Shown here in pieces: positions 2,244-54,135 of a DNA stretch of 64,000 bases (position 1 is its first letter; every line of letters begins with the position of its first letter). The stretch lies in assembly GCA_043228905.1 (NCBI GenBank), contig JBHGNT010000010.1:9548001-9612000 (forward strand). Reading direction: 5' to 3'. A program made the translations under genes and the position numbers. The notes under the pieces were generated by a model. That model was not told the DNA's origin. It saw nothing but the letters and a program-made list of their open reading frames with translations, and did no database searches. The stretch is from Azolla caroliniana. Its lineage: Eukaryota; Plantae; Polypodiophyta.

Positions 2244-2266
2244 AAATAACTGTCATGTTATTGTAG

Positions 2267-28207: not shown

Positions 28208-30025
28208 TCATGACACTATCCCCCTTCTTCGACAACACGTCTCACGGGTCGTAGGGTTTGTATTAGGACCTGGTTTACAAGGATATTGGCGATGAAATGC
28301 ATTGACGAGTTCTGTAGCATTGGAAAGATTTGTGGCAGGTTCCCAAGTTCGATCATTGGGGGTATAGCCTAGCCAATCGACTAAGTAATACAACTTGTTG
28401 CGCAGGATTTTAGAATCGAGAACGGCAACAACTTCAAATTCAGGCCCGTCCAAGAACTCGACAGGTGGTGGGGTTGTCGTAAGACGGCCCGGAATTGAAC
28501 TTGTAGTATAAGGTTCCAAAAGGGATACATGAAACACCGGATGAAGATGCATGTGCGGAGGGAGGTCAAGACGAAATGCAACATCACTTATCTTACCAGT
28601 GATCATGTAAGGGCCAAAACGTCGGTAATCCAATTTACTGCAAGGTCGAGTGGTCTTGATGTTGTGTTGGAGAAGCCATACATGATCCCCAATGCGGAAC
28701 TTTTTTGAGGAGTCTAGACGATGACGATCGGCAAGCCTCTTGTGTGTAAATTGAGCATCGTGCAAATTGTGGAGAATGTTAGCTTGAATTTCTTGGAGGC
28801 GACTAAGACAATCCTCGGCAGCAGGGTTGGTAGGAACTTCTGGATGCGCATTCATCGTCCACCGAGGATGACAGCCCGTATTTGCGAAAAATGGGGAATA
28901 TCCTGTAGAAGAATGGGCTGAGTTGTTGTAAGCAAATTCCGCCAAGTGCAAAAAAGCAGCCCAATCATTTTGTTGATAGTTGATGAAACAATGAAGATAT
29001 TGTTCCAATGTCTGGTTGGTACGCTCTGTTTGGCCATTTGTTTCAGGATGATAGCCCGAAGAAAGCTTAACTGAAATGTGGAGAAGTTTGAACAGGTGCT
29101 TCCAAAACTTTGAGATGAATTGTGGACCACGATCACTAATAATATCATCCGGCAAACCATGATGCTTACATACCTCCCGCATAACGAGATCAGCCGTCTC
29201 TTGACTAGTAATCGACTTTGTACATGGCAAGAAATGTGCCATTTTGGTAAATCGATCAACCACTGTGAGAATTGCATCAAAACCTTTTGAAACTGGGAGA
29301 TCAGTAATGAAGTCCAAGGATATAGACTTCCAAGGAATTTCCGGAATGGGAAGTGGTTGTAGTAAGCCATAGGGTCGGTGACGAGGATTCTTTGATCGAC
29401 AACATATATCACAACTCCGAACATACTCCTCAACAAAATGACAAAGGCGAGGCCACCAATAGCATCGAGAAATTAATTCTAGAGTCTTGTGAACTCCAAA
29501 ATGACCAGCCATTGGTGAGTCATGGCAATGTTGCAAAACTTGTAGCCGTGGGGGACCATCAGGAACATATAATAAATTTTGTCGAAATAGAAAACCATCA
29601 TGCCAATAGAACTGACAATAGTCATTACGAGGATTTTTCGACTCTGAGCAAGAAGCACGATCCGGGACGATATGATCCAAAACATCCTTGGCGAAATCAT
29701 CAGTGGCCATATGATCTCGAATGGAATTTTCAAGAGTTGTTATGGCGTTAACTACCAGTAATCGTAATCTATTAGGACCCAAAAGGATTTGTTTTTGATG
29801 CTCAAATGCAGGTTCCCCTCGACGAAGTTCCATATAAGAGCGCCGAGAAAGAGCATCTGCTTTGCCTTGCTGCATCCCAGGGCGATATATGATGATAAAG
29901 TCGAAGTGAGTCAAAAATTGCGCCCACCGGGCTTGTCGCCGACTCAAGACTCGAGCATTTTGGAAATAAGTCAGGTTCTTATGATCATTGTAGACAATGA
30001 TTTGTTGAGAAGAACCTTCTAGGAA
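28208..30025 (-). CDS. pol: RNase H C-terminal part, integrase and chromodomain
   Basis: GKADALSR, H..H..CDIC, SLDFIT, SDRGPQF, GPY and FEV..LDS..YLVDWLGY...TWEP. Confidence 0.92.
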   Translation of the reverse strand, partial: FLEGSSQQIIVYNDHKNLTYFQNARVLSRRQARWAQFLTHFDFIIIYRPGMQQGKADALSRRSYMELRRGEPAFEHQKQILLGPNRLRLLVVNAITTLENSIRDHMATDDFAKDVLDHIVPDRASCSESKNPRNDYCQFYWHDGFLFRQNLLYVPDGPPRLQVLQHCHDSPMAGHFGVHKTLELISRCYWWPRLCHFVEEYVRSCDICCRSKNPRHRPYGLLQPLPIPEIPWKSISLDFITDLPVSKGFDAILTVVDRFTKMAHFLPCTKSITSQETADLVMREVCKHHGLPDDIISDRGPQFISKFWKHLFKLLHISVKLSSGYHPETNGQTERTNQTLEQYLHCFINYQQNDWAAFLHLAEFAYNNSAHSSTGYSPFFANTGCHPRWTMNAHPEVPTNPAAEDCLSRLQEIQANILHNLHDAQFTHKRLADRHRLDSSKKFRIGDHVWLLQHNIKTTRPCSKLDYRRFGPYMITGKISDVAFRLDLPPHMHLHPVFHVSLLEPYTTSSIPGRLTTTPPPVEFLDGPEFEVVAVLDSKILRNKLYYLVDWLGYTPNDRTWEPATNLSNATELVNAFHRQYPCKPGPNTNPTTRETCCRRRGIVS

Positions 30026-30029
30026 AAAA

Positions 30030-31452
30030 TCATTGCTGAGTAAGCGGAAGCACAACCTTGGAATAATCTTTAATAAATTTTCGATAAAAATTTGCAAACC
30101 CGAGAAAACATTGCACATCACGCACTGAAAGGGGCGTTTGCCACTCTAAAATTGCTTGTACCTTCATGGGGTCCATAGCAATACCATTTGACGATACAAC
30201 ATACCCCAAAAATTCCACTTGATTCTGGCCGAAACTACACTTTTCTAATTTTGCGTAGAGACCATATTCTCGGAGTCGACGCAGTACTTGACGAACATGT
30301 TCATCATGCTCCTCTTGGGTCTTTGAGTAGATTAAAATATCATCTAGGTAAACTATAGTGAAGATATCAAGAAAATCTCGAAAAATATCGTTCGCCATAT
30401 GTTGGAAAACAGCAGGTGCAGTCGTGAGACTGAATGGCATCACTGTATACTCAAAATGTCCATAGCGAGTGCGGAAAGCTGTCTTCCATTCATCCCCCGG
30501 GCGAATCCGAACTAGATTATATGCTCCGCGAAGGTCTAACTTCGTGAAATATTTTGCACCACTAAGACGTTCCAAAAGATTCAGGATTAATGGTAGAGCA
30601 TATCTATTCCGGATAGTCACTTTGTTTAGCCTCGATAATCCACGACCAACCGAAGAGTCCCATTCTTCTTCTTAACGAAGAAGGTAGGTGCACCAGCAGG
30701 GGATCTAGAATGCCGAATGAATCTGTTTGCCAAATTCTCATCAATATATTCCCGCAAAGTCTCTAGCTCTACAGGGAGAGATTATAAATTGGGCCCCATG
30801 GAGGTTCTTTCCTTGGTTGTAAGTCAATAGGGCAGTCGTATGGCCGATGCTCCGGCAATGTATTGGCCTTCACCTTATCAAAGACATTTGAAAACTCCTT
30901 GTATTTCTCTGGTAGTTTAATATCCGCTTCACATGAAGTGGATGATGGAGTTGCTATTATTGCGAAGACGAACATGGCCTCGTTCTCCCCTTCCTCCCAC
31001 AATTGTCGTAAAGTGATGGGCGATAACTCCGGGAATCTATTATCACATGTAGGAGAGAGGGGTTCGGGATTTGTGCTTTTTTCCCGGGTCTCCTCAATTG
31101 TTCTTTTCATCCAATCAATCTTCGGGTTATGGAGTTCAAACCAGGGGAGACCTAGAACTATTGGGTGTTCCGGACTACGAATAATGTTGAAAGAGATTAT
31201 GCTTGCCAAATTGCCAAGAACTATCCTAATTGGCTCGGACTCCTCGACTATATCTCCTGATGCTATGGGACGTCCATCAATGACTCCTACGGCTACTGGG
31301 CTGGGAAGCATATTCAAGAGGATGTTTTGTGACAAGGCAAATTCACGATCCATGAAACAAGAGTTGGCTCCAGAATCTAGAAGGGCAGAGGCTAGGACTT
31401 GATGACATGTAGATGTGGTAAGCTCGACTTGTGCTGAAAAAACTTGACTCAC
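30030..31452 (-). pseudogene. pol: Aspartic protease and reverse transcriptase (frameshifted)
   Basis: [23 protein letters not shown] and YLDD. Confidence 0.92.
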
Positions 31453-31537
31453 TTGATTTGATGAAATGGAACCACGACTAGGAACTAACTCTACATAGCT
31501 AGGATGGTCCAGCCAATGGCTCCTATTTTGGCCGGAC

Positions 31538-32202
31538 TTACTCGTTTAACACATCCTCTAATTGACTCAAGACATCGAATCTATTCTCATGACATGGACT
31601 ATGAGGCTTATTTATGTTATTAGAAGTAACAATAGAACTCGATGTAGGGTTTTCATGGGCACTTACTTGGTATACTTGACGCCTAGGTTTATGTGGACAA
31701 TTTACAACTATATGTCTTGGACCGCCACAATACAGGCAGAGGCGATGCGCTCGACGTCGTTGCTTCTCAGCATCTGATAACGGCCCACGACGTTGTGTTG
31801 ACTCTATTTCCATCGGAGTTGGGCCATCCCTTGTAATGGGTCTAGATACTTGTGGAGGCGTTGCGACTACGGAAGCGTAAGTCTGCTCAGGTTGGCGTAA
31901 CATTTGTTGGCGCTCAGAACGTCGCTCAAATAGGCGATTATCACATCGCACAACTCGACTAATGGCTTCTGTAAGTGACTTCGGATCTTTAGGGAAAGTA
32001 AGAAGAAGATCTTTGACATCATTTCTCAAACCTTGACGGAATTGATCCATTAAAGCTGCCTCATCCCAAGGAATATCGCATGCCAAGAGACGGAAATCGG
32101 CTGCATAAGACGACGCGAGACGATCTCCTTGTCGGAGCCTTCGAATCTTGTTTATCGCTGTCCTAGTGCTGTCGGTGTCTCCGAAACTAGCTTGAAACTC
32201 TT
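31538..32202 (-). pseudogene. gag: Gag, 5'-truncated
   Basis: LRQG, FRQGLRNDVKD, PMEI and CLYCGGPRH...C knuckle. Confidence 0.88.
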
Positions 32203-33557
32203 TAACACTCTATTTATAAGTACCAATTTAGGTTTGGGATGGGTGGTAGATCCCTATTTATAAGTAATAGAGAACACTCTAGAATATTCTAGGTTATCCT
32301 AGAATGTAGAGTAATCTAGAAGATCTCTAGAGTATTCTAGAAGGTTTTAGTGGTATAGAACACTCTAGAATATTCTAGGTCATTCTAGAATGTAGAGTAA
32401 TATAGAATATTCCTATGATATTAGATTTCAAATTCTAGAAATTATACATATAAGAATATTAATACAATGGTTAAGGATTTGACATGTGTACAACAAGGTC
32501 GTGGGTTCAAATCCTTTCGAGTGAGTGTCATGATCCTTTCCATGCATGATGTGACTGTTATCATGACACTGACGAGGAAAAGGGACACTCCGGCGCTTAA
32601 CGAATTTGACGAAAGTAGGTACGATGGGGAGTGGCTCCAAATCGGGAGGTTCCTACGGACGATGACGACGGATGCAGCATGGACGAGAGAGGAGGTGAGC
32701 CGGGTACGGAAGAAGGCGTACCAGGTGGAAGGACGCGCACTGCAGAACAAGACAACCGCGGCAGTATGCTGGTTCTTGATCGAAGAGGTAGTGTGTCGGT
32801 ACGGGTGCGTCGGGAGGATCGTGGCGGACCGGGGAGAGTTGGATGTGAGGGAGGCTGAGGAGTTGTTCGAACGACTGGGGCGGATGTCGTGAAGAAAACC
32901 GGCCATAGGCGGATTCGGGCAAAAAGGCGCATGAACCGGCTCTTACACGGATGGACGCATGAATTGATATTTTGATATTGATTCATAAATGGATCACCTG
33001 ATGTAAATACTAAGTAGTGCACGTTTATTAGGGGGGATTGTGCGTATCTTTGTCAGAAGGGACAAGGAATAAAACGATTTAACTAGGGAAAGGGGCACCC
33101 CTTTTTGGGAACTATTTAAGGAGAGGAGACAAGGAGGAGAAGGGGATCACGCATTAAGGAGGACGAAGTGCTGCAGGACCGAGGACCGAACTCTCTCTCC
33201 TCCTCCGATCGTCATTCTCTGTGGGTACGAGGAGTTCAACGCCTCTGCTTCATGGGCAGCTCGTGCGCTGCCAGCAGAGGCTTTTTCTTTTGCGTTTCTC
33301 TGGGTCCAGTGTGTTCCGTCTGTGTGCGTGAGTAGGGTCCCCATGTCGGGCCCATCGCCGCCTTGCCAGTTGTAACCATTAGAGTTTGTAATCTCTTGTT
33401 ATTGTAATCAAGTGTTCCGTTCTATATATCTCCTTCTCGCTTCTACGTGTCTGTGAATCTCTCGCTCTCTCTCTCCCTCTCTCTCTCTCGCTCCTCGGTC
33501 CAAGACCCCCGTGGTCCCGCCCCTTCTACACGCACGCACGCGCGTAACAACGCGACA

Positions 33558-34562: not shown

Positions 34563-35039
34563 AGACAATAGAAAAACTCAGATTCAAAATAATGACTCTC
34601 TATACATACACGATGCTCAATGAGCACCTTTTATACAAGCCCTGAAAATCGGGCTGACACAAGTACTGACAGTACTTGACTGCTCATAAATGAGCCTCGA
34701 CAGTCACTCCCAAAATTATTCCTTACGAGGAATATCTCTCTAACGGCCTTTCGGTTTACGCACCGATACGGCCAGGTTGTGCATACTTTTTCACGCACCC
34801 AGTCTAGGCACTGGGTTACGCTGCGTATTACGCACTCAATGTTGAGCTTGTAACTCAACAATTGTGAACTTGTATATATTCTAGAGTCTACTATATAGTA
34901 CATTCGAGAATATTCTAGTCATTAGTATATTCTAGAATTATTCTATGGTATATTGTGAACGGGTATATTCTTGAGATTATATTTCTCGAGAATATTCTAG
35001 AGATATTGAATCTTAGAAATTGTATAAATACTTGTAACA
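33558..35039 (-). mobile_element. 5' part of a Copia element: LTR 34414-35039, PBS-Met and gag
   Basis: Reverse-complement PBS tggtattagag. Gag KLDRSNYTSW..., LRQELSNVRQ with one in-frame stop. Confidence 0.85.
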
Positions 35040-36191
35040 TCCTTGGTCCCTTTCAAAGGATTCAACACCAGTCATTGACACATCAATCTAGTATTCTTGT
35101 TTCGCCTCATCTTTGTCTCCTTGATCTTTATTTCTGTCTTCATGCGCTCACGAGGCTCACAACATCTAGAGTTCCTTGCGTCATCACATCTAGCTCCAAG
35201 TGGATCCGTCGCCCGTAGCCCCATCATTTGTGCTCCATCCTAGTCCGCGCTTGGTGTGTCCGTAACAGTTTGAATCCCTTCCAACTAGGAGCATCACCCG
35301 TCTTCGTCATCGCCTTTGCTTCTAAACTTACCATCATCACTGTCCTTTCTTCCAGAGTTACCGTCATCATCATCCTTGTCTTCAACGTCATCATTTTCAG
35401 CACCTCTTTGCCCAACCATCGTCGTCATCAACACTACTTGTCATCATTTTTAGGTATCATTTTGCATCACGGTTTTGGTGAGGAGTGCTTTCGATCGCTC
35501 AACTTCCCAGTTCCGTTGGGGGTCACAACTGCTCACTTTCATGGTGGGGATTGGAACATTGCTCGCTTGCACTGCATTTTCGTTGGTAGGGTTAGAACCA
35601 CTCACTTTCCTAGTGGGGATCGCATGGGTTTCTCGTTAGCACTACCGTTTGTGTTGTGTCTTTAGTCAACCAAGACTATTTACCCTCTCATAATAGAAGA
35701 AGTCAAGTCGATCGCTTCACTTGCACTCCTTAGCCCATTGTTGTTCTAGTTCTCGGTGAGGGCTGCATGGTCGCTCACGCCCATTCGTGTTCAGTTCTCG
35801 GTGAGGGCCGCATGGTCGCTCATGTCTGTTCGTGTTCCAGTTCTTGGTGAGGGCCACATGGTCGCTCGCGTCCGTTCGTGTTCAATTCTTAGTGAGGGTT
35901 GCATGGTCGCTCACGCCCGTGCGTGTTTGGATGAGGATCACACATGGTCGCTGACGTTCCAGTTCCCAATGAGGGCCACACATGGTTGCTCACGTCCGTT
36001 CGTGTTCCAGTTCTTGGGGAGGGCAGCACGTCGCTCACGCCTGTTCGTGTTAAGTTCTCGGTGAGGGATGCATGGTTGCTAACGTTCGTTCGTGTTCCAG
36101 TTCTCGGTGAGGACCGCATGGTCACTCACGCCTGTTGGTGTTCATGTTCCAACTCTCGGTGAGGACCGACATGGTCTCTTATGATCGTTGG
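34857..36191. repeat. Copy 1 of a ~1.4-kb duplicated module (LTR end, D-rich segment, satellite); copy 2 is 48131-49619
   Basis: Long near-identical stretches, for example 35031-35480 versus 48299-48750. Confidence 0.92.
35745..36191. repeat. ~45-bp minisatellite (ggtgagggccgcatggtcgctcacgcccgttcgtgttccagttctc); continues at 47631-47715
   Basis: Unit starts near 35755, 35800, 35846 and 35891. Confidence 0.92.
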
Positions 36192-37143
36192 TGTTGTCCA
36201 TGGGCCAAAGTTGTAATTCTAAGAATTGTAATAGGAAGTAGGTCAAAGTAGGTGAACAACTGTAATTACGAACAACCGTAAGGAACGAAGACAACCGAAA
36301 TATGCGCAACCAAGAACGGGAAGAAGCAAAGCGCGCCGAAGCAAAGAGGAAGGGAAAAGCTATAAAAAGAAGACCAAGAGAATGAGACAAGGGGGGGAAG
36401 CAAAGAGAAGAAGGGAACTATAGCCCATGATTACGGGATTCTGAGGGTCTAGGTCATACTATTACTTTGTTGTTAATTCCAGCCGTGGGCCGTGTAACTG
36501 TATTCATGACATACTCGTAATACATATAGTTTTGGGTCTATTTCTTGTGTTGGTGTTATGTGATTGCTGTCCCTTATTAAATTGATTTGGTGAAACATTC
36601 TCTAGGAAGAGACCTCCCTTACGTAACGTATTTGAAATCTTGTTTTCCGGTAACGCCCTGACCACCACGTCACACACAATTTGGTCCGATTTCGGCTAGG
36701 AAATGGAAGGTGTTGCCTCCGGGAAGGAAGGCAACACAATTTTTTATTTGATTGATAAAGTGGCCTCCCTGATCACTCACTAGTTCGATTGGACACCTGA
36801 AACGGCACCATAAATTTTCGTAGATAAATTTTGAAGTGGACACAGCTGTGTTATCTCGGAGAGCTTTCGCTTCGACCCATTTCGTCTAGTAATTGGTTGC
36901 CAAGAGGATGTATTTGTTACCCGTGCGTGTTGTGAGGGGTTTAAAGGGACCCACAAAATCCAATCCCCAATTTTGGAAAGGTTCCAAGGGAAGGATGGGC
37001 TGGTGTGGCATGCGGTTGTGTTCGCTTGGCTATCCCATATGTTGGTAGAGGTCGCATTGTTTGCAAAAATTATGAGCGTCTTTTTTCGTAGTCGGCCACC
37101 ATAACCCGCTCTACCAGATTTTTCGTGTTGTGGCATCTCCTAT

Positions 37144-37977
37144 TGTGAAATTGTTTTTAGAAATCAAGCCATTGGACATTAGAAGACTATAAGGTATGGA
37201 GCATTCACATTTGGAGGCTAAGAACACGAACCAATATCTTAAGAAGAAGTCAAAAGTAAAAGTAAGATACACAGAGAAAAGTAAAAGGAGAAAAAGAGAA
37301 AAAGAGAAAAAGAGGGCCATAAAAAACAGTAAAAAAGGAATGGTCAGAACTATTTCGTTTGTAACCCAAATATCATGTATAAATATAGCTTAGAAAGCGT
37401 GTAAAGAGGGCTATCTATAGCTTTTTAAATCTATAAATTTGGAGCTCGGATGAGGGAGATATGATGATTAGAAGGTCGATGGGTCTTAGCTAAAATTAAG
37501 AGATAAAAAGCTTCTAAAAATAGCGTGAACGAGGAAGAAGAAAAAACTTATACAAGGGGAAGTGATACTCTTAGAAAAAGGTCCTAATAGAGAGGGGATC
37601 CTAATAGAGGAGGAGGAGGATTAGGGGGGAAGGTCTTAGTGGAAGGAGGGAATCCTAATAGAGGAGGAGGAGGATTAGGAAGAAGGGTCTTAGTGGAAGA
37701 GGAAGGGTCTTAATTGTGGGTTTGAGTGATTGGTAGTAAGAAGGTCTTTGGTTTCTTAGTTGAAGGTGGAGTTTATCTCTTTTGTATTGTCTTGATATTG
37801 GAATATCATAACAATCTTATCTCTTTCTCATCATCTCTATCTTTTTTCTTAATTTCTCGAGTCTCTCTCTCTAATATTTAGATACCTTGATCTATATAAT
37901 ATATTATGAGTCACAACTCCATCTAACCGGTTTGGTCAAGCCCTCATATAGTGTAAGATTACCCTTTGTCTTAAACA
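37144..37977. mobile_element. ~0.83-kb insertion (probable solo LTR) in the integrase
   Basis: Interrupts HYAGD/ATTRKIW. TG...CA-like ends and internal cctaatagaggaggaggaggattagg repeats. TSD unclear. Confidence 0.55.
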
Positions 37978-40900
37978 CTCTATCACCTGCGTAATGGTAG
38001 CTCGCAATTCCTTGATGCGCATCGCGGATCATGACATCCTTCTCGAATTGTCAAACCGTGCATCTCCAGATGCCGTCCAAGCTTTTGTAATACAGAGTAT
38101 TCAAAAGTAAACAGAAGTTTCAGCTTTGAACTGCTAGCCATTTTTTAGCATCAAGCATGAGATGGTCCGGTGGAAGGCCAATACTCAAGAAGTGTGTCAT
38201 GTCAATGATCCAAGCATCTTCGGAATCGGTGGACTTTGTGTCGATGGAGAAGAGGGATGTGTCTGGTAAGTCATCGTATTCCTGTTCCGCAGGTTCCCCA
38301 GATTCTAATTGGCTAAAGTAATCCAGCTACCGCATGTTAGACCCCAGGTCGGTGTTGGATATCGAAATCAAACTCTTGAAGGAGTAGCATCCACTGTGCT
38401 AAGCGACCAGTCAGGGCTTGTTTATGAACAAGATACAATAGTGCCGAATGATCCACGTGGAAAGTGAATTTTCGGCCGAGCAGATAGTGTCGAAATTTAG
38501 TGAGATACGATAGATCATGTGGAGCGCTTCACGTTTCATGGTGGAATCATTCCTTTTCACTGTCGAGAGATGTTGGCTAGCATAGTAAACGGGGCGATAC
38601 CAATTCGGGGGAGTTTTCTGCATTAAAGTGCTGCCAATGGCGATGTTGGATGCATCTACGAATACGCGAAAGGGTTGTGCCCAATTTGGAGGTTGGACCA
38701 CTGAAGCTTGGGAAAACATGACTTTGAGTGATTTATAGGCCTTGTCTTCCCGTTCCGTCCATCGAAAGGGAATCGCGCGGATGGCTATGTGTAAGGGGGT
38801 CACGAAATCAGCGAGGTATCAGAGCATACGGCTATGCCATCGTATTTGACCTAAAAATCTGCTAAGTGCTTTGGTCGTGGCTAGGGCCGGGGCATTCAAG
38901 ATGGCTTGAACTTTGTCAGGATCCATGGCAATGCCATCCCGACTGACAATGTGGCCGAGTAAAGCACCGCTTGTAACGTGGAAAGCACATTTTTCTGGGT
39001 TTAGGTTGAGTCGTGCCTATCGACATCTTTCAAGGCACAATCGTAAATGCGCAAGGTGCTCCAATTGCTGACCATACACCGCGAAATCATCAAGGAAGAC
39101 TTGCATGAAAGCTGGAATGAAGTCCTCGAAGATTTCGGAGATGATTCATTGAAACGTGGCGGGTGCCGTTTTTAATCCAAACATCATGACTATGGCTACG
39201 AACACACCCCATTCCGTTACGAATGATGTCTTTTCTTGATTGTCCGGGTGCAGTCATGGTTGTCTAAAAAACTATTGCAGTCATGGCCGACAACCGTATC
39301 GAGGACGCTGTCAGTGAATGGGAGTGGAAACACATCTGTAATCATGGTTGTGTTGAGCTTTCGGTAATCCACGCATACCCGGATTTGTCTGCTCTTTTTT
39401 GGTACAACCACAATAGGACTTAACCATGTGGCTCTTTTGACCGGCCGGATGAACCGGACACTGAGAAGTTTATCTATCTCTTCTCACTTTGGTCGCGTAA
39501 TGTGGATTCATTCAGTAATGGTGTTGCTGGATTGGCCGTGCATTCTTTTGGAGGAGAATTTGATGTTGGTAGTATTGAGGGTCGAGGCCCTTCATATTGT
39601 TGTACGCCCAAGCGAACACGTCCTAATATTCCGTGATCAATCCAAGTAGGGCTGATCGGTTGTTGATTGCCAGATCCTTGGCGATTTTTACTTGTCGTGG
39701 CTCGGAAAGGGAGCAGAGATTAACCTCTTCCAAGGTGGAGGCCTTTACTCTCTGTGAGATTGCTAATTCGCAGTCAACTGCGTCACGGGCCTGTTGTAGT
39801 TCTTTTACTGAATCCTGATCAGGCTCGTGAGGAGCTTCGTGGTTTATTGTGTTGGCTAAGTTTGGTTCTATGGCCGAAAAGCGGGACGATCGTGGGGTGC
39901 TCGTCCAAAAACGTGTTTATATAACATGTGGACTCCCTCCGCATATAGCGGGTTGTTGTCAGAAGGAGTTGAAGTACGTGCTTTCGTAATGATGCAGACT
40001 TTGGCTTTTCCTCGCCAAAATGAAATCATATTGCGCTGCCAATGTTGCTTGATGTTAGCCGTTCGCAGCCATGATGTTCCCAGCAGGAATGGGTAAGCGC
40101 CTAGCGCATCGAGGCGTAAGACAACTGTGGACACAATGAAGGTATGTCCTCCCAAAATAAATTCCAGGTTGCGTAGGAGCCCTATTGGCCACACCGATCT
40201 CGTATCTACCATTCGTAACCAAAATGGACACGACTCCCATTGAGTGATGCCGATCTTGTTGAATGTGGCTTCGCTAATGACATTTACACCTGACCCGCCA
40301 TCGATACTGCATCTAGGAATTTCGTGACCGCGGATGATGAGTTGTATTGCTGGATTTTAGGAATCCATAAGGGGAGGCCCTAGTGCCGAGGTCGTGAGAT
40401 TGGCGGAGGGGTGAGTCGGATCCAGACTGGTTGTGAGGGAATGAACCGTCTCCTTGACGCGCGGTAGCAGTTGTAGCAATTTGTGCAGTGGCATGGATAT
40501 TTGGGAATCTGCGAGCACCTGCCAAACTGGGTCTGGATTAGTGTGATCCGAAGTGTTGGAGCTGAGTTGATCTGGGTTTGTGGTTTGCGGTTGGACGGGG
40601 TTTCATTCCTTTGTTTCTGCTATTTCGACTTGCATCTGGACGATGTTGGCATTATTGGCTGCGTCGACCCTGTCCTTAGTGTGTTGTTGAACTGAGTCTT
40701 GGATATCCCACTGGGATTGCTGTGTCTTGCTGCGTGTAGTCACCTATTGCACGTCAATTGTAATCATATTTACTACCGATGCTTTTCCCCTAGTGTTGGC
40801 GGGGCACTGGTTGGTGTACTGGCCGGGTTGGTTATAATTGAAGCATGTGATGGTTGTCGAGGTACCAGGCTCATCTTGCTCGAATTGGGGTTGCGCTAGG

Positions 40901-42047
40901 TTGTGTGATTGGTCTTCCTGCTCCTGCTGGGGATATGCCTGTGGAGGGTTGCCTCGAGACTCGATTTGTGGGGTTCGCCAATTATCGGTGCGTTGATTAT
41001 CACGACGACGGTTGTCAAAGTGACATTGGTTCCCTGAAGCTTGGAAACCATTATTATTCCGTCAATCGTACCGTGAATGTTGAGGTGCATCGTAGTCATT
41101 GCGGCCATAATTCCTGCAAGAGTGGTGGTGGTCCTGATGACAGTGCCAACGATCATTCATGTGGTGTGATGGATTGGGGTAACAAGGGGGCTCCGACTGA
41201 TACTGGTTATCCTTATGGTAATAATCCATTTTGGAATTGCCCCCTTGTTGAAGTGGAGCCTGTCGTCTTCCCATGGCCGTGTCGCTTCTTTGTTCCGTGG
41301 AGGTGGTTGCTCATGAGATTGCGTGTGGTTGGCGAGGGGCTCAATTTGGTGGACTGCACAGTGTTTGTTCGGTTCAGCATGTTGTATTCACATTGCTCCA
41401 TCGTATGGACCCTTGAATGGCAGATGGGACAATGCGGTCGTGAAGGACAGTCAAGAGCGGAGTGGTCAGATTTGGCACATATCGTGCATTGCAGTGCTTG
41501 GTGGAACTGAGTTTCCTCGGTCGTTGGCAAGGCAGTTTGAAGTGTACCCATTGCTAACGAATTATTATGATGTGCCCTATCCAATGCAAGGATGCGGGTG
41601 ACCACTTCCTCGATGGTCTGCTAAGAAAAATTTGTAAGAGCCAACGTCATGCATAGAGGCCCACGGAGGCCGGCCAGAAACGTCTCTTTCAAATGATTCA
41701 CAGATACATCCTGTGTGAGTTAGCGGTACAGGTCTTGAAAGCGGCGAACAAACTGGGACACGGTTTCGGTAGGTCCCTGGCAGATCATATAAAATTGATG
41801 AAGCAATTCCCGCTTCGGATCTCTTGGTGGAATAATTCCAGAAACTGGGTTCGAACATCCTAGAACATGGTAAAATCCCCAGGATCGTGCCGGGAATACC
41901 ATTGTGCAGCGGGGCCGTCTAGGGAGAGAGTGAATTCGGCGATTTTAGAGGCGTCGACCTCCTCGGCGGTGGGTCGCTGTGTCGAATGGTTGCTTTATAG
42001 GTGTTGAGAAAGGAATGGATATAGCCATCGGCATCCGGGCCATCCGT

Positions 42048-45000
42048 TGTCGTGAAGATTCGGGGCTATGGTGAGAAACCGGGAGATATTGGAGGAATTG
42101 GCAAGGTGCACCATGTGCACCCACCCTTGTACAAAGGTAGCGTAGGGGCTAGGGGGTGCCTTTGTTGCGCCGAATAGGCAATAAAGTTGGGACAGAGGAT
42201 CCCATGTAATAAGGGATTTATCCCGCATTGTAACGTTCCTCCCTCCTTGGGCTATAAAAGGAAGGGAGGGGTGGGGTTGCCCATTTTGTGTTAGAGGGTA
42301 TACCGTTAGATTAGGGTTAGGCGGTTATCTTGGTAGTTTCTTCTTCTATTTTTTTTTCTTCTTCTTCTTCGTCATCGTGTGGGTGGAGAGTTCGTTTGCC
42401 TGTTTAGGGTTTGCATATGTTCAGTCTCTTGTGCAAGACCCCGCTCGGCACGACGAGCCCAAGAGCTACTCGATCGGCGGCTTGGCAGCAGGCTGCTGTT
42501 GTAACCTAACCTACCTTGATCCGGCTCGACGTTGGGGTTGTGTCTTTTTTTTCTTTATATATATATATATGTATATTCATGTCAGTTTGTGCATAATGGT
42601 GTCTCTGTTGGTGTCGGGTGCATAGCTCCCCTCCTTTGTTTCCTGTACATAAGAGTCGGTGTTGCGCGCTTGCTCCTCTCCTTTTCTCTCTCTCTCTCAG
42701 GTTCGGTTGCCTCCGGAGTCGGTTTCTTGAACTCCCTTTCTCCGTCGTCCGAGACCCCCGTGGTCCCGCCCCTTCCACACACACGCGCGTAGTAACGAGA
42801 CATATTTGGTGAACCCGACGTGAAGGGCGGCAAGGGAGAATGGAGTTGGAAGAGAATGACTTCGCGCAACTTTTTGTCGAAGCGGTGAGGGAGTTTGGAC
42901 GAGCAATAACAAGACGAGAGTCGGCGCAGAGAGCGGTTGAGCGAGTGGTTGAAAGGGCCGGTCGTTTCAACGGGGACAAAGTCCCATTCTACTTGGAAGC
43001 ATACAACACGGAAATGGAGGAGCAAGACATAGACGAGGCGTTGAGGCTGGAGTTCTTCTGTCGGGTCGTCGTCGTCCGTATGCACGCGGAAGTGAAGGAG
43101 CTCTGAGAAGCTCATAGTTCATGGGAGGCCTTCGAAGAGGCGCTCCTGCAGGCATATGGAGGACGGCGGAAGAGCCAGGGACGACACGGCTTCGACCAGT
43201 GGGTGGCATCGGCAAAGACCCGCCGGGGCGCAACGAAGGCGTTCCGAGAGTTCGAGCGACGACTTGCTCAGCTCCCGAAGTGGGAGCAAGGTTTGGTGGG
43301 GGTGGACGAAGTCCTGTTGTTCGTCAGGTCGATCGACAGAGCGGAACGGGAGTCCATCGGGATTGAGCTCGAAGATCAGGACGGAGCGAATGGCCTTACA
43401 GAGGACTGGTCGAACGTCGGAAGGGTATGCCAACGGCTAGATGACGAGCGAGCCGAGAAGGCTAGGAGGAAGGCGCGCGACGGCTAGATGACAAGCGGGA
43501 AGAGGTTGAACGGCAAAGAGAGTTGGCAAGGCTCGGCTTTGGGGCCAGGATAGCGAAGGCGTACGTGGCTCTCGAGGCAATGATCGAGGAAGAGGAAAGA
43601 TCAAGACCTCACGCCGACGCCGGGGAGGCGGACTTGCCCCACGAGATGGCAGAAGATCGGTACGACGATACCACGGGAGAGGGTGCGGAACAAAACGCCC
43701 TCTTAGCTTGCGGATATAGAACGGCCGAGGACAAGGCCGAGATACCGATCGCGGGATTGGAACATTGGGACCGGCGGTTTTGGGCATGTCAGCCCGAGGC
43801 TCCGGACATTGGAGAAGCAAGTCCAGGCAGGGTTTGCGTGATCGGTAAGGAGTGGACCACCGACCACGAGGAGCCGGTGGCTACGAACAAGGGCGCAAAT
43901 AGGACACGCGATTCTACGCGTCTTCCCACACTTGCTCCCAAGACAATGGCAGTCGGGCCCGAGTGCCCACGTGAGTCCCAAGAGGAGGAAGGCGGCGGTG
44001 GGAGACCGAGAATCACTGGAGAGATGATACGAGGAAGGAGTGGACAAAAGCCCTCGGAACCGATTCCGGAGAACTCGGCATACGGGCCCTTACGCCCACG
44101 TGAGACCGAGGAGATGGATGACGACGTCGAGGAGTCCTAGCACGATGCCAGCAAAGAAGGATGGGAAATGGCCCGTGAGAACGTCGACGAAGGAACCAAG
44201 AAACGACCCGACCGGGGACCAAACCACGTGGCACTCCGAATTGGGTGGAGCGCGATCTGGTCGTGGATTATTCAACCGAGGCTAGAATCGGCATGAAGGT
44301 GCCGATACGGAAGAGGGTGCGGAATGAGCCGCCCTCGTTTACATGGGGATAATGACCGACTGAGTGAAGGTCGGGAAGCAAAAGGGAGGTGATCAAGGGT
44401 TCAGAATGCATTCGGCAAGATCGGCATCGGAGCCGAAACTCCGAACATTGGAGAATCAAGCCCAGGTGGGGCGTGATTGATCACAGAGCGGATGCTTTCC
44501 ACCGACCCCACATCTTGAGTGGAGACTTCGGCAGTTCAGTCGGCGTGGCAATGTGAGACCGAAAGAGAAGGGAGCACAGTAAGGAGAGCGACGAAGAGTT
44601 CGGGAGAAGTACAAGGGACGAAGCAGAGAGCGAAGACCGATGCTATGGGTCACCTCACACCAGGCTAGAAACTCCGACGGTCGGCATTGGATCTTACGTA
44701 AGACCAAGATACTGATGGTGGCGGCAGGAGAACGGGACTCGACAATCCGGAGAGTGACGGATGGACCCGGACGAGAACTGGGCGGAGCGGACTTCCAAAT
44801 AACCGATCCGGAAGAGAGGAGAGAGCAGGCCTATGAAGAGGCCGGGAACACGGTACATCGGTACCATGAGAGAGGGTGTGGAGCGAGCCACCCTCTTGAC
44901 ATGCGGAGAAGGACAAACCGGGTGAGGGTAGGGGATATGACGAGCCCGAGGAGGATCCTTCACACCAGTTCTAGAGACTCCGACAGTTGGCCTGAGAGCC

Positions 45001-46752
45001 GGCGTGAGACCTAGAGTGACGAATGGTTGCGACGAGGGAACGAATGCAAAAGACCGCAGAAGGGGCGGTCTATGGAGATCCTCACACCGAACTGGCAGTC
45101 GGCCTGAGTGCCGACGTGAGTCCTATAGGAAGGGACGGTGGCGGCAGGTGAACGTGACCAACACAAGAGGCCGACACGGAGGTCGGACTACGACAAGAAG
45201 AAAACGGCAAGTGGTGCTGCCGCGACCTTACACACACCGGTTCTAGACACCCCGGCGGTCCGCCCGAGAGCCGGCGTGAGACCTAGAGTAAAGAACGGTG
45301 GCGGCGGCAAGGCGGCCAACTGAAGGCAGAGGGAGGTCCCACGAGATCCTTACACCGATCCGGTGGTCGGCCCGAGAGCCGGCATGAGTCCTATAGGAAA
45401 GGACGGTGGTGGCAAGAGAACGTGATCGGACGACGGGGCAGAGCATCAAGGATGTATTGGGCCGGCGAGGTGGCCACAAGCCGAATCGGACCTTCCGGTA
45501 AGGTCGAATGAGGATAAGGAAGACCCGATTCTATGGGGTCCTCACACCGCTCCGAAGACCCTAGCAACTCAAGTCGATGTGGCAGCGTGAAACTGAGTGA
45601 GAAGGACGGTGGTGATAGGAAACGGGACCCGACAACGCAGAAGAGTGGATAATGAGGCGAACCCTTACCGGCCAGTTACGGTTTCGGAAGTAGCTGGTAA
45701 GGGCAAGCAAGGAGCGGTGTGCTGAGTTAGGATGGCGAACTCAAAGCGGAACAAGAGACGTGCATATGGCCACCGAGGGCCAGTTCGAAGCACGATCGCG
45801 GGACGGTGTTCGGCATAGGCCAGTTCGAAGAACCGGAGCTGAGGGTTCAGACCGGCAAGGCCGACGCGGCAACTGGAGTACGGAGTGCGGATTACGGAAG
45901 ACCGGTTCCTCACCTGCTAGAATCCTTCACCTTCCCCGAATTTGGCACAGGCTGGTGGATGTGCAGTTTGGTGGGGGCGGATGTCATGAAGATTCTGGGC
46001 TATGGTGAGAAACCGGGAGATATTGGAGGAATCGGCAAGGTGCACCATGTGCACCCACCCTTGTACAAAGTTAGCGTAGGGGTTAGGGGGTGCCTTTGTT
46101 GTGACGAAAGGCAATAAAGTTGGGACAGAGGATCCCATGTAATAAGAGATTTATCCCGCATTGTAATGTTCCTCCCTCCTTGGGCTATAAAAGGAAGGGA
46201 GGGGTCTCTTGTATGGGGTTGCCCATTTTGTGTTAGAGGGTATACCATTGGATTAGGGTTAGGTGGTTATCTTGGTAGTTTCTTCTTCTCTTTTTTCTTC
46301 TTCTTCTTCTTTGTCGTCGTGTGGGTGGAGAGTTTGTCTGCCTGTTTAGGGTTTGTTTCTGTTCGGTCTCTTGTGCAAGACCCCGCTCGGCGTGACGAGC
46401 CCGAGAACTCCCCGATCGGTAGCTTGGTAGCAGGCTACTGTTGTAACCTAACCTACCTTTATCCGGCTCGAAGCTGGGGTTATGTCTTTTTTATCTTTTT
46501 ATATATATATGTATATTCATGTCAGTTTGTGCATAACGGTGTCTCTGTTGGTGTCGGGTGCATAGCTCCTCTCCTTTGTTTCCTGTACATAAGAGTCGGT
46601 GTTGCGCGCTTGCTCTCTCTCCTTTTCTTTCTCTCTCGGGTTCGGTTGCCTCCGGGTCGTGTCCGGAGACGGTTTCCTAAACTCCCTTTCTCCCTCGTCG
46701 GAGACCCACGTGGTCCCGCCCCTTCCACACACACGCGCGTAGTAACGCGACA
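42048..46752 (+). mobile_element. Complete non-autonomous gag-only (TR-GAG-like) LTR element with tRNA-Trp PBS
   Basis: LTRs 42048-42802 and 45982-46752, PPT, 4-bp TSD CCGT. Gag N-terminal region 42840-43490 and no pol motifs. Confidence 0.93.
42807..42824 (+). promoter_or_regulatory. Primer binding site complementary to plant tRNA-Trp
   Basis: TGGTGAACCCGACGTGAA is the complement of the tRNA-Trp 3' end TTCACGTCGGGTTCACCA (recalled sequence). Confidence 0.85.
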
Positions 46753-47798
46753 CCGTGTAGCGGGCATAGGGGTGGTATGGCATTGTGTCAAGCTCGGGAT
46801 CTTCCGGTAGGGCCGGGAAAGGGTTGAGCTCCGGTTGTGGTGAGACTTCTGGAGGACTTGGAGGGGTAGCAAGGTCAGGACTGATCTGCAAATGTGTGTC
46901 CGGGATTACCGGTGGCGAAGATTGCGATTATGGGGACAAGTAATGTGTGAGCAGGGAATCGGTCGTGTCCTCGGCATGCTCTGTGTGGTGGGGCGGCGGC
47001 TGAGAGCGAGTAACTCTGTTTGGTGACATAATGGCGATTGGATTGACCACCAATGTGAGTTCGCTGTGCTACACAATGTGAACCGGGCTTTCCAAATTGT
47101 GTTGCCTTCCTTCACAGAGGCGACACCTTCGATTTCCTAGCCGAAATCGGACCAAGAGTTGTGGTACGTGGTGGTCAGGGCGATACCGGAAAACAGGATT
47201 TCAAATACATTATGTAAGGGAGGTTTCTTCCTAGAGAATGTTTCACCACATCAATTTCATAAGGGACAACAATCACATAACACCAACACAAGAAATAGAC
47301 CCAAAACTATATGTGTTACGAGTATGTAATGAATACAGTTACATGGCCCACGACCGGAATTAACAACAAAGTAATAGTATGACCTAGACCCTCAGAATCT
47401 GGTAATCATGGGCTGTAGATCCCTTCTTCTCTTTGCTTCTCCCCCTTGTCTCGTTCTCCTGTTCTTCTTCCTATATAGGTTTTCCCTTCCTCTTTGCTTC
47501 GGCGCGCTTTGCTTCTTCCTGTTCTTGGTTGCACATATTGCGCCTGTCTTCGTTCCTTACGGTTGTTCACCTACTTTGACCTACTTCCTATTACGTTTCT
47601 TAGTATTACAATTTTGGCCCATGGACAACAGTTGGTGTTCGTGTTCTAGTCTTCGGTGAGGACCACACATGGTCGCTCACTCCAACTATTGTTCGTGTTC
47701 CAAATCTCGGCGAGAACCAACTTGTATATATCATAGAGTCTATTGTATAGTACTTTCGAGAAAATTCTACTCCTTAATATATTCTAGAATTATTCTAT

Positions 47799-48040
47799 GG
47801 TATTGCCTATGTGCATGTGCCCGATGAGAAGCAAAGGAAGCTGGACCCGAAGTCGGAGAAGTGTATTTTAGTCTGCGACTCACGTGAGTAAAAGGGGTAC
47901 AAGTGTTACAACTCCCGAAGAAACGAAGTTCGAGTGAGCCGAGATGTCGAATTCGACAAGTCGGCATCATGATACTCTCTACCGACTTCGACTCGGACCC
48001 CCGACAATTCCAACCACTCCATCATTGAAGATGAGGCCAA
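47799..48040 (+). pseudogene. Isolated Copia integrase C-terminal fragment
   Basis: GIAYVHVPDEKQRKLDPKSEKCIL..KGYKCYN..VSRDVEFD. Confidence 0.8.
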
Positions 48041-49082
48041 TGAATCTGTCACATTATAGACTCGAACCTCTGACTTTTAACACATAGTACATTGTGTTGT
48101 GTTAACCATATGGAAATTCTTATGAACTATCATTGTGAACTTGTATATATTCTAGAGTCTAGTGTATAGTACATTCGAGAATATTCTAGTCATTAGTATA
48201 TTCTAGAATTATTCTATGGTATATTCTGAACAGGTATATTCTTGAGATATTTGTCGAGAATATTCTCGAGATATTCAATCTCAGAAATTATATAAATACT
48301 TGTAACATCCTTGGTCCCTTTCAAAGGATTCAACACCAGTCATTGACACATCAATCTAGTATTCTTGTTTCGCCTCATCTTTGTCTCCTTGATTTTTATT
48401 TCTGTCTTCATGCGCTCATGAGGCTCACAACATCTAGAGTTCCTTGCCTCATCACATCTAGCTCCAAGTTCATCCGTCGCTCGTAGCCCCATCATCTGTG
48501 CTCTGTCCTAGTCCGCGCTTGGTGTGTCCGTGACAGTTTGAATCCCTTCCAACTAGGAGCACCACATGTCTTCGTCATTACCTTTGCTTCTAGAGTTACC
48601 ATCATCACTGTCCTTGCTTCCGAAGTTACCGTCATCAACATCCTTGTCTTTGACGTCATCATTTTCAGCACCTCTTTGCCCAACCATCGTCGTCATCAAC
48701 ACTACTTGTCATCATTTTTAGGTATCATCTTGCATCACGATTTTGGTGAGGAGCGCTTTCGATTGCTCAGCTTCCCAGCTCCGGTGGGGGTCACAACTGG
48801 TCACTTTCCTGGTGAGGATCGGAACAGTGCTCGCTTGCATTGCATTTTCATTATAGTTCAAGTCTCGCGCCACTTTTTGGTGGTGAGAACCGATTTCGAT
48901 CGCTCACCTTCTAGTTTTGGTGGGGGTCACAACCGCTCGCTTTCTTGGTGGGGATTGCATGGGTTTCTCGCTAGCGCTACCGTTTGTGCCATGTCTTGGA
49001 TCAACCTTAACTATTTACAGTCTCATAATAGAAGAAGTCGAGTCGATTGCTTCACTTGCACTGCTTTGCCCGATGTTGTTAC

Positions 49083-49619
49083 AGTTCTCGATGAGGGCCG
49101 CATGGTCGCTCACGCCCATTCGTGTTCCGTTCTCGGTCAGGGCCGCATGTCACTTATGTACGTTTATGTTAAGTTCTAAGTGAGAGTTGCATGGTCACTC
49201 ATGCTCGTTTGTGTTCCCGTTCTTGGTGACGGCCGCATGGTCACTCATGTTCATTCGTGTTCCAATTCTCGGTGAGGGCCACATGGTGACTCATGTCCAT
49301 TCGTGTTCAGTTCTCGGTGACGGCCGCAGGGCCCCATGGTTGCTCACGCCCGTGTGTGTTTTGTATGTGGACCGCACATGGTCTCTCACGTTCCAGTTCC
49401 CGATGAGGGCCACACATGGTCACTCATGTCGGTTCGTGTTCCAGTTCTTGGTGAGGGCCGCACGGTTGCTCATGCGCGTTCGTGTTCAGTTCTTGGTGAG
49501 GGCCGCATAGTCGCTAACGTCCGTTCTTGTTCCAACTCTCGGCGAGGACCGACATGGTCTCTCATGCTTGTTGGTGTTCATGTTCCCTATGAGGACCGCA
49601 CATGGTCGCTCACTCCAGC
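49083..49619. repeat. Second block of the ~45-bp minisatellite
   Basis: Same unit as at 35745-36191. Confidence 0.92.
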
Positions 49620-50675
49620 TGTTGTCCGCCGGAATTGTAACCGCCAGACATAACACATGGAAAATAGAGTATTATATTAGAAACGTTAAAGTAACGCGGG
49701 TAACGGTTCACGCAGGGAGCGTAACTGATTAGAAGCCTTGTGTATATAAGGGATGAAAGACCTTTGTAAAAAGAAGTGTATTGTAAGAGCGCTGTTTTAA
49801 TATAGTTTTATCTTCTCTGATCTTGGTATTCTGTCGATTGGTCTCTTGTTTTTGTTTCTCGTTCTCTGTACAAGAGTATGTTGCAGTAAACACAAGGTAA
49901 GTACGTGTTGGGTAACTACGCTTCTACGGAGGTTCGGTTGTAGCCATCCCCCCTTACGCCTTACAAATCACGCACTACACATCCCTATTCCATTGCACCA
50001 CGATCACCATGTAAGCTACCCTAAAGGACTGAGGGTGGATTGTGTTCCTAATTGGAAACAGTTTTGGCACGCATGGTGATCTGTGAATCCTCGCAACCGA
50101 GCAAGCAAGGAATGGATTTTTAGCTGCCGACGTATCAGAGAACCTATGCGACAAGATCGACTACTAACTAGATCCATCACCAGACAGACAAAAGAACGCG
50201 CTACCCGGAAACCCCGCCTCAACGACCACACCTCTTTTCAGGAGTATATGGTAGACTCCACTCTCACAGAATAGACCGACTTTGATCATGAAGTTTTATC
50301 GCCACACGACCAAAGTAGTGTGAACAAATGCCACAGTAGTCCACATCGTGGTAACAATAACCTTCCTTTGCCGACCCTCACCATCGTGACCGGAATGGCT
50401 TTTTCATATCCCCGCTTCAACGGAGAAATTGACGCTGCGAGCCACATACGATCACATGACCCTAAACCCTAAACCCTTCCTCAATGTTTGGAATGCTAAT
50501 CACATGGCGCAACGGTTTTCTGAGGCGGAAACCCATGCATCGAAGATCGCCGAATTCGGGTTAACTTTGGATGGTCGAGTTGCGTGCTGACATTCCCGAA
50601 TGGATTTGGTAGCAATCACAACCTTCGACCAATTGCAATCGGCGTTCTTGTGTTTTTTTCATCGGACGATGCCGT

Positions 50676-53600: not shown

Positions 53601-54135
53601 GAAGCTTCCATCCTCGTCCTCCCTTGCCGCCCTTCACCAAATGTCGCGGAAATCCATGCTTGCGTGTCAGATAGGACGGGACCATGAGGGTCTTGGACTA
53701 GGGAGTAAGAGGAGGGAGAGAAGCTTGGGAGTTCAACTGAGAAGGAAGAGAAAGATTAAGATTCAAGAGATTAAGATTCAAGAGAATAAGATCTAAACAA
53801 GACAAGATACATTATGGAAGGCACCACACCAATTACAATTGTGGCCGTGGAGGCCGAATGTAAACCCTCTAGATGAAACCCTAATCGGATAGGGGAAAAG
53901 AAGAAGAAGAAGAAGAAGAAGAAGAAGAAGAAGACGAATGAAACCCCTAAAACGAGATCCTAAAACCCAAAATTCTGAAACCCTAATGGCAACCCAAAGA
54001 AACCCAAAAAGTGGAAGCCCCTAAAAAATGGCCCCTCACTCCCTTTTATAGTAGTAAGGGGTGAGACACATTACATAAAGAAGAGATCAACCCCCCCTCC
54101 TTTGAATGGGGGAATATTTGGCCTTGATCTAGGAA
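50676..54135 (-). mobile_element. Gag-only element of the tRNA-Trp clade with truncated 5' LTR
   Basis: LTRs 50676-51473 and 53642-~54135 are similar and both carry (GAA)n. PPT at 51474. PBS partly deleted. Confidence 0.9.

What the first reader, a model, noticed from the sequence alone, without database searches (positions are those of the whole stretch)
36192..47630. LTR retrotransposon with INVERTED LTR+PBS ends yet a perfect TSD
Seen: 36192-36742 and 47094-47630 are ~550-bp inverted repeats. Each comprises a full LTR, a PBS (tggtccga..., tRNA-Tyr-like) and ~40 nt of leader, with both U3 ends outward. GTTGG flanks both sides, and the duplicate satellite shows the empty site (ttgttggtgttc, near 49568). 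The minus-strand gag-pol breaks inside integrase (SDQGGHFINQ) at a T-run junction with the left leader, with no PPT or 3' LTR. Established: normal integration joins one U3 and one U5 end of direct LTRs. Inference: concerted integration of two U3 ends, either from two cDNAs later end-joined or from a fold-back cDNA, giving a TIR-like retroelement. Simple inversion or nesting would not keep this TSD.
Basis: partly seen in the sequence, partly recalled or inferred. Interest (0 to 1): 0.85.

Follow-up and report, generated by a model that had tools for sequence, protein, structure and literature searches.

The report
Retrotransposon inserted by two left ends
An old, broken plant jumping gene has its start-end repeat on both sides, facing inward, under one 5-base insertion scar; it is real and near single-copy, and is likely a one-off copying accident that the element's own integrase pasted in by two identical ends.

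Summary
The structure is real. Arms 36192-36742 and 47094-47630 are 89% identical inverted copies of LTR + primer-site motif + leader, U3 ends outward, GTTGG on both flanks; a paralogous satellite has GTTGG once. Contigs of two independent studies carry the central junction without a difference, at about single-copy depth: neither misassembly nor an amplified form. The parent is a Ty3/gypsy family whose other copies continue leader and integrase normally; a 3' end (L001) has a direct-orientation LTR with no purine tract. Best reading: two plus-strand cDNA intermediates joined tail to tail and integrated by two U3 ends (0.42; 0.60 with the two-donor variant). Not excluded: double insertion at one site plus deletion (0.17; precedent in Drosophila), or a later template switch (0.15). 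It is a dead fossil, not a TIR transposon. The scan noted similar inverted-LTR insertions before on other DNA (two in this genome, two elsewhere; unchecked). I found no genomic U3-U3 case in five paper searches.

The parts
36187..36191 (+). left copy of 5-bp target duplication GTTGG, in a 45/46-bp satellite
36192..36678 (+). left LTR, U3 end outward; carries a 16-bp segment (about 36257-36272) that the right arm and L001 lack
36682..36689 (+). primer-binding-site-like motif TGGTCCGA (tRNA-Tyr match recalled, not tested)
36690..36742 (+). first 53 nt of the leader, ending in TTT
36743..36745 (.). central junction: three T that fit neither the leader continuation nor the integrase continuation of other copies; no shared letters
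   Evidence: (tables 7, 8)
36746..37138 (-). integrase zinc-finger end and core, cut after SDQGGHFINQ
   Evidence: Integrase_H2C2 E=3.8e-4, rve E=1.3e-5 (both under the curated cut-off)
37139..37985 (.). later insertion: high-copy solo-LTR-like piece (TG..CA at 37144-37985, flanking 5-mers match 3 of 5) inside the integrase zinc finger
   Evidence: table 5 (contigs in 4 of 4 runs skip 37138 to 37986)
37986..42047 (-). decayed gag, protease, RT, RNase H and start of integrase (Ty3/gypsy order)
   Evidence: RVT_1 E=3.8e-13, RT_RNaseH_2 E=6.9e-19, Retrotrans_gag E=0.0012
42048..46752 (+). later insertion: nested LTR element with direct LTRs (42048-42802, 45982-46752; 90.3%) and 4-bp TSD CCGT
46757..47146 (-). 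leader of the long copy; 47094-47146 is the part mirrored in the left arm
47147..47154 (-). primer-binding-site-like motif TGGTCCGA
47160..47630 (-). right LTR (5' LTR of the gag-pol copy), U3 end outward
47631..47635 (+). right copy of target duplication GTTGG
49570..49574 (+). empty site: single GTTGG in the paralogous satellite array
   Evidence: monomer left of the insertion matches it at 37 of 41, the monomer before at 34 of 40

Best explanation
This is a decayed Ty3/gypsy insertion with a U3 end on both sides under one 5-bp duplication, likely made when two plus-strand cDNA intermediates were joined tail to tail during reverse transcription and the product was integrated in one step. Each plus strand starts at U3. 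One would have stopped about 50 nt past the primer site, little more than a plus-strand strong-stop DNA; the other would have run about 5.3 kb into integrase. A few untemplated A on the long strand, pairing with or jumping onto the TTT end of the short one, would let each copy the other and give a linear DNA with two U3 attachment ends, which integrase can use. Shown: the anatomy, the duplication, the empty site, the junction in independent data, low copy, later nested insertions. Inferred: the joining step, its timing before integration, and integrase as the agent. The product is predicted to be unable to copy itself (no 3' direct repeat for strand transfer, cut integrase).
For: Both outer ends are exact LTR starts beside a 5-bp duplication, the length of 93.4% of plant LTR elements (PMC6317226, passages), and the flanks join up in the paralogous empty site. 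The junction is in a 116-nt contig without differences in 2 of 3 runs laid (X2, X4; two studies, two organism labels) at 1.4x and 0.6x the depth of locus-private pieces. Arms differ by K2P 0.083 (0.058-0.111), the nested and necessarily younger LTR pair by 0.069 (0.051-0.090), so the arms can have been alike at insertion. The short copy ends 53 nt past the primer motif; a random break in a roughly 7-kb element would land that close about 1 time in 100 (inference; full length estimated). The filler is TTT after TTT (1 in 64 by chance). Ty1 integrase joins two identical ends concertedly in vitro and prefers U3 to U5 (PMC8487063, passages). RTs, Tf1 RT among them, add untemplated bases and join strands by 2-nt overlaps (PMC3035444, passages). 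The family looks small (arm depth about 15-42 times locus-private depth, a rough upper bound), which disfavours same-site double hits, whose rate goes with the square of copy number (inference).
Against: The end structure is the same as that left by two-donor integration plus repair, or by double insertion plus deletion; nothing here separates them directly. The junction has no shared letters, and the RT clamp needed a C or G in the overlap (PMC3035444 abstract), whereas this one is A:T only; filler of this kind also fits host end-joining (own knowledge). A related-lineage element begins at 49620 in the paralogous satellite, so these arrays take repeated hits. The arms differ by a 16-bp indel that is polymorphic in the family, which argues against fold-back of a single cDNA, though not against two templates. 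The TSD length of this family was not measured on another copy. The left outer junction is supported only by depth in its bin, not by a listed piece (24 of 558 pieces were shown).
Confidence: 0.42

Rival explanations
1. Two separate cDNAs were integrated in one concerted reaction, each by its U3 end; the resulting break was closed by host end-joining, with loss of most of one copy and the 3' part of the other, at once or by collapse of the long palindrome.
For: Same TSD logic as the best reading. Two-donor concerted integration is the standard in vitro reaction (PMC8487063, passages). No microhomology plus filler fits end-joining. The polymorphic 16-bp indel suggests two templates.
Against: Needs a chromosome break to be survived and a breakpoint within about 60 nt of the primer site by chance. 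Aberrant HIV proviruses with one host-joined end show large duplications or deletions of host DNA, not a clean 5-bp repeat (PMC5041404, passages); that case differs, but no in vivo two-donor case turned up.
Confidence: 0.18
2. Two normal insertions of the same family hit the same site (or in-register monomers of the satellite) in opposite orientation; a deletion across the tail-to-tail centre removed both 3' LTRs and the inner TSD copy.
For: Inverted same-site LTR tandems with a target motif in the junction are described (two Rover insertions; PMC5932611, passages). GTTGG recurs in register at 36134; two random satellite 5-mers match with probability 0.008, not 0.001. A related element sits in the paralogous array at 49620. 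After a first insertion the site would read GTTGG-TGT again. The indel fits two templates.
Against: Needs three events in a family of tens of copies. The loose ends before the LTR start listed are, by eye, unrelated to the satellite except for this locus's own right flank (4 rows, selected by the tool, 39 rows not shown). The arms share a minority allele at 36300 and one variant at each of three further sites near 50%, which points to one subfamily.
Confidence: 0.17
3. A normal element inserted first; a later replication or repair template switch copied the start of the 5' LTR plus 60 nt in inverted orientation over the 3' end, entering at the LTR's terminal inverted repeat and returning inside integrase.
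For: The U3 start and the reverse complement of the U5 end match at 5 of 6 letters, which would place the first switch exactly at the TSD. Needs only one template, and a short tract is natural.
Against: The left arm has the long LTR variant that other loci also carry, the right arm the short one shared with L001; this needs a later exact 16-bp loss in the right arm (possible between the 7-bp repeats). The ten letters before the primer motif differ strongly between arms.
Confidence: 0.15
4. The inverted form is itself a replicating or transposing unit with terminal inverted repeats.
For: Shape only: inverted ends, TG starts, TSD. Ginger transposons show that gypsy-type integrases can serve TIR elements (PMC2836005, abstract).
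Against: Junction depth is 0.6-1.4x single-locus depth; 5-7 contigs a run continue the leader normally; integrase is cut; no tyrosine recombinase or internal complementary region as in DIRS.
Confidence: 0.03
5. Assembly artefact.
For: No long read was available; no single piece spans the element.
Against: Arms are 89% alike, not identical. The junction is in contigs of two studies, and the right outer junction shows as a loose end in X4 matching the right flank at 27 of 30 letters by eye.
Confidence: 0.02

Closest known systems
Plant non-chromovirus Ty3/gypsy elements (Phygy, Selgy, Athila/Tat; REXdb, PMC6317226, passages)
   Same: gag-PR-RT-RH-IN order, TG..CA LTRs, tRNA-type primer motif, 5-bp TSD; other copies of the family are continuous and have a direct 3' LTR.
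   Different: LTRs inverted, two primer motifs, no 3' end. The family's normal 3' end (L001) has no purine tract. Lineage within non-chromoviruses not placed: no tree was built.
Template-switch complex insertions of Triticeae, rice and maize (Sabot and Schulman 2007, PMC1950507, first of two parts read)
   Same: Two element copies fused by aberrant reverse transcription and integrated under one TSD.
   Different: Those are head-to-tail with three direct LTRs and normal U3 and U5 ends; this one is tail-to-tail with two U3 ends.
Inverted LTR tandems by double insertion (Rover, Drosophila; PMC5932611, passages)
   Same: Same-family elements in opposite orientation at one target site.
   Different: There the target motif lies in the junction between two elements; here the centre is a leader-integrase fusion, so a further deletion must be assumed.
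Two-donor concerted integration in vitro (Ty1 IN, PMC8487063, passages) and aberrant HIV proviruses (PMC5041404, passages)
   Same: Integrase accepts two identical ends and prefers U3 (Ty1).
   Different: In vitro only; the aberrant proviruses have one host-joined end and large host rearrangements, not two integrase-type ends.
DIRS-1 retrotransposons (PMC7192593, passages)
   Same: Inverted terminal repeats around gag and RT.
   Different: DIRS uses a tyrosine recombinase and an internal complementary region; here a DDE integrase remnant, a TSD and no such region.
Ginger DNA transposons (PMC2836005, abstract)
   Same: Inverted ends resembling gypsy termini, gypsy-like integrase.
   Different: Ginger1 has 40-270 bp TIRs, CCGG/CCGT TSDs and an intact transposase, without gag or RT; this is a single dead gag-pol copy with 550-bp arms.

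Membership tests
Ty3/gypsy LTR retrotransposon (parent family) | gag, protease, RT, RNase H, integrase in gypsy order | tested here: met
   gag and integrase hits are below Pfam's curated cut-offs
Ty3/gypsy LTR retrotransposon (this insertion) | two LTRs in direct orientation | tested here: not met
   inverted, no direct copy
Ty3/gypsy LTR retrotransposon (parent family) | a 3' LTR in the sense of the coding strand in other copies | tested here: met
   L001: open frames run into an LTR 90.6% like the right arm; one contig, its 5' LTR not seen
Ty3/gypsy LTR retrotransposon | primer binding site complementary to a tRNA 3' end | tested here: inconclusive
   TGG motif 3-5 nt after CA in both arms; tRNA identity recalled; no hit in the five supplementary files held
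Ty3/gypsy LTR retrotransposon | polypurine tract before the 3' LTR | tested here: not met
   absent in this insertion; absent in L001 (60% purines in the last 15 nt) and before the LTR of a relative at window 61918, minus strand
Ty3/gypsy LTR retrotransposon | 4-6 bp TSD | tested here: met
   GTTGG both sides, empty paralogous site; family-specific length not measured
Phygy lineage | NCGN target duplication | tested here: not met
   outer TSD is GTTGG; the nested element's CCGT does fit
Named non-chromovirus lineages (Selgy, Athila, Tat) | placement in an RT/RH/INT tree with reference elements | not tested
   no reference set was fetched
DIRS order | tyrosine recombinase instead of DDE integrase; internal complementary region | tested here: not met
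   rve and Integrase_H2C2 hits; no third copy of the outer LTR sequence
Ginger / TIR DNA transposon | intact integrase-like transposase, no gag or RT, dispersed copies with the same TIRs | tested here: not met
Autointegration product (inversion type; recalled) | LTR ends joined to the element's own internal DNA | tested here: not met
   both ends abut host satellite

The most novel reading that the evidence does not exclude
A plant gypsy lineage that lacks the polypurine tract and primes plus strands at a tRNA-like site makes two plus strands per particle often enough that they join and integrate by two U3 ends again and again: a recurring in vivo route from LTR retrotransposon to an element with terminal inverted repeats and a clean TSD, missed by all tools that look for direct LTRs.
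Probability: 0.2. Interest if true: 0.75.

Novelty: new variant of a known kind. Interest (0 to 1): 0.42.

Why it matters
If one integrase event made it, this is genomic evidence that an LTR-retrotransposon integrase uses two U3 ends in vivo, so far seen mainly in the test tube, and that reverse transcription can yield inverted-LTR DNA with a clean TSD. Such products are invisible to LTR finders and are the shape from which TIR elements with gypsy integrases could start. It makes one question testable: are U3-U3 insertions enriched in the PPT-less lineage? As a single dead copy with rivals that leave the same scar, it does not by itself show a new replication mode.

Tried and rejected
No whole genome is held, so the genome-wide count of inverted pairs and junction copies could not be run. 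Rfam gave no tRNA hit on the 47-nt stretches before the 3' LTR of L001 or of the window relative (one chance serC match, E=8.1); a fragment this short may be below its reach. The five supplementary files of PMC6317226 held as text had none of three primer-site motifs; its per-element table may not be among them. No relative of P0001 in viral contigs. The protein search gave one unnamed relative among 226 candidates, and the Atlas gave Streptophyta for three clusters on few records, so the organism is not identified; earlier notes disagree (moss or fern). The first read-laying was swamped by high-copy repeats. Site-by-site comparison of the arms with family variation did not settle one against two templates: of 21 sites listed, the right arm equals the left at 8 and differs at 13, and the differences at polymorphic sites lie mostly in CG or CHG context; three-way counts with L001 were star-like (8 left-only, 11 right-only, 5 L001-only, 1 all different, 230 columns). 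TSDs of neighbours (CATGG, CCTGC, CCAGC) hint at CC/GG-ended targets but are too few, and only one side is seen for two of them. Rejected: simple inversion of one LTR (cannot give two primer sites), ectopic inversion between two distant elements (gives direct LTRs), autointegration, DIRS, Ginger. Scan look-ups near this place, by sequence and in relatives returned nothing.
Full report
Observation. Self-comparison of the window shows one inverted pair at 36192-36742 and 47094-47630, 89.2% over 553 columns. Each arm begins TGTTGTCC at its outer end, runs through an LTR ending in CA (36678; 47160), a spacer of 3 or 5 nt, the motif TGGTCCGA and 53 nt of leader. GTTGG abuts both outer ends. The insertion lies in a 45/46-bp satellite of a host repeat that recurs at 48132-49620; there GTTGG stands once, at 49570, with sequence like the left flank before it and like the right flank after it.

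Interior. The minus strand holds decayed gag, protease, RT, RNase H and integrase in Ty3/gypsy order (protease by one homologue and Atlas clusters). The integrase stops at Pfam rve position 80 of 102. Two later insertions inflate the element: an LTR element at 42048-46752 with direct LTRs and a CCGT duplication, and an 847-bp solo-LTR-like piece that contigs of all four runs laid skip (table 5). Without them the insert is 5,883 bp. There is no direct LTR and no sense-strand purine tract.

Is it real, and is it amplified? Eleven of 12 listed runs hold part of 35600-39600. Laying three runs on 36168-36830 gave, in X2 and in X4 (different studies and organism labels, each with small differences from the window nearby), a 116-nt contig matching 36713-36825 without a difference: 30 letters of leader, the three T, 80 letters of integrase. 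No such piece was among the 8 listed for X1, whose identical piece ends at 36742; only 24 of 558 pieces were shown. Junction depth is 48 against 33-35 for locus-private pieces in X2 and 5.6 against 9.2 in X4 (1.4x and 0.6x), while arm bins are about 15-42 times deeper; the tool warns that summed depth is no copy number, so this says 'tens of LTRs, about one junction' and no more. Other copies continue the leader (5-7 contigs a run) and the integrase (3 contigs in X1) with other letters, and the three T at 36743-36745 fit neither. A loose end in X4 before the LTR start matches the right flank at 27 of 30 letters by eye; the left outer junction shows only as low depth in its bin. No long reads were available.

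The parent family. An exact 30-nt LTR pattern found one metagenome contig, L001. It carries open frames running into an LTR 90.6% like the right arm, in direct sense: a normal 3' end. No purine tract precedes that LTR; there is a short hairpin and CCA two bases before it, and a relative at window 61918 (minus strand) has the same layout. Earlier scan notes read this as a tRNA-Arg 3' end priming the plus strand (for example e1-10598439); I confirmed the lack of a purine tract and the layout on two sequences, but not the tRNA identity (Rfam blank), which is recalled.

Age and templates. The arms differ by K2P 0.083 (95% 0.058-0.111); the nested LTR pair, which must be younger, by 0.069 (0.051-0.090); a young chromovirus nearby by 0.012. 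So the arms may have been identical or nearly so at insertion. Evidence on one or two templates is mixed. For one subfamily: both arms carry the minority letter at 36300 and the same variant at three sites near 50%. For two templates: the left arm has a 16-bp segment that three listed contigs with 7-11 differences also span without a long gap, whereas the right arm and L001 lack it, though it lies between 7-bp repeats and could be lost twice; the ten letters before the primer motif also differ strongly.

Mechanism. In established LTR replication a U3 end forms where a plus strand starts (own knowledge). Two U3 ends mean that both strands of this DNA begin as plus strands. I therefore favour two plus-strand intermediates joined tail to tail, one barely past the strong-stop length and one reaching integrase, then integrated in one step (0.42). 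The short copy ends about 60 nt past the LTR, near a natural pause, which a random deletion in a roughly 7-kb element would hit about once in a hundred (inference). Ty1 integrase joins two identical ends and prefers U3 (PMC8487063, passages); RTs add untemplated bases and join short overlaps, but needed a C or G to do so (PMC3035444, passages), which this A:T junction lacks. Two-donor integration with host end-joining (0.18) gives the same scar. So do two routes without any U3-U3 reaction: double insertion at one site plus deletion (0.17), with a precedent in Drosophila Rover (PMC5932611, passages) and a related element in the paralogous satellite at 49620; and a later template switch entering at the LTR's terminal repeat (0.15; 5 of 6 letters). 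A replicating TIR-like form (0.03) and misassembly (0.02) are unlikely.

Known systems and novelty. The closest described case is the template-switch complex of Sabot and Schulman (PMC1950507, first of two parts read): fused copies under one TSD, but head to tail. DIRS (PMC7192593, passages) and Ginger (PMC2836005, abstract) share the inverted ends and fail the membership tests. Aberrant HIV proviruses have one host-joined end (PMC5041404, passages). Five full-text searches (listings read, most papers not opened) showed no genomic insertion with two U3 ends and one TSD; one search on PPT-less priming showed nothing relevant. The library lacks most subscription papers, and supplements were searched for one paper only, so absence is weak. 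The scan has noted like structures before: e1-10621211 and e1-10619871 in this genome, e1-9818888 and e1-10279157 in others; they are unchecked leads, not support.

Verdict. Observation confirmed and extended; interpretation partly supported. A real, old, dead, near single-copy inverted-LTR insertion: a new variant of aberrant LTR-retrotransposon products, interest 0.42. It would deserve 0.75 if U3-U3 insertions prove recurrent in the PPT-less lineage (probability 0.2).

Noticed in passing
L001:233-275 (minus strand) and window 61919-61963 (minus strand): Normal 3' ends of this lineage have no polypurine tract: a GTGGG...CCCAC hairpin, CCA, two bases, then the LTR. Fits earlier scan notes on tRNA-like plus-strand priming; tRNA identity not confirmed.
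   Followed up: partly
window 49620-50061 and on to about 57350: A related gypsy element whose LTR starts with the same eight letters begins in the paralogous satellite, one monomer from the empty site; primer motif TGGCACGC, gag near 50500, RT at 54118-55337, interrupted by other repeats; far end not found.
   Followed up: partly
window 42048-46752: Nested LTR element with gag-like frames and no pol hit, 4-bp TSD CCGT (fits the NCGN preference reported for Phygy), primer motif TGGTGAACCC.
   Followed up: partly
window 37139-37985: High-copy solo-LTR-like insertion in the integrase zinc finger, with a 54-bp internal tandem; depth in the thousands in all four runs.
   Followed up: partly
window 34861-36191, 47631-47830, 48132-49620: Host repeat made of a roughly 300-bp LTR-like head and a 45/46-bp satellite, in tandem copies (93% alike), with a short Copia-like coding scrap at about 47830-48000; may be a non-autonomous element.
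   Followed up: no
window 27869-32570: Young chromovirus (repeats 98.9% alike, chromodomain integrase, minus strand) next to an integrase frame without chromodomain at 25790-27289.
   Followed up: no
window 19334-25155 and 57519-61450: Copia-type elements: a partial tandem duplication at 19-25 kb and an inverted relative at 58-61 kb (about 78% alike).
   Followed up: no
window 900-2290: Complex 41/42-bp tandem array built of near-palindromic units (TAGCTAATTAGCTA), giving many inverted self-matches.
   Followed up: no
L001:292-1292 (minus strand): The family carries about 1 kb of extra coding sequence, coiled-coil-like by eye, before the 3' LTR; a diverged counterpart lies at window 62044-63185.
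   Followed up: no
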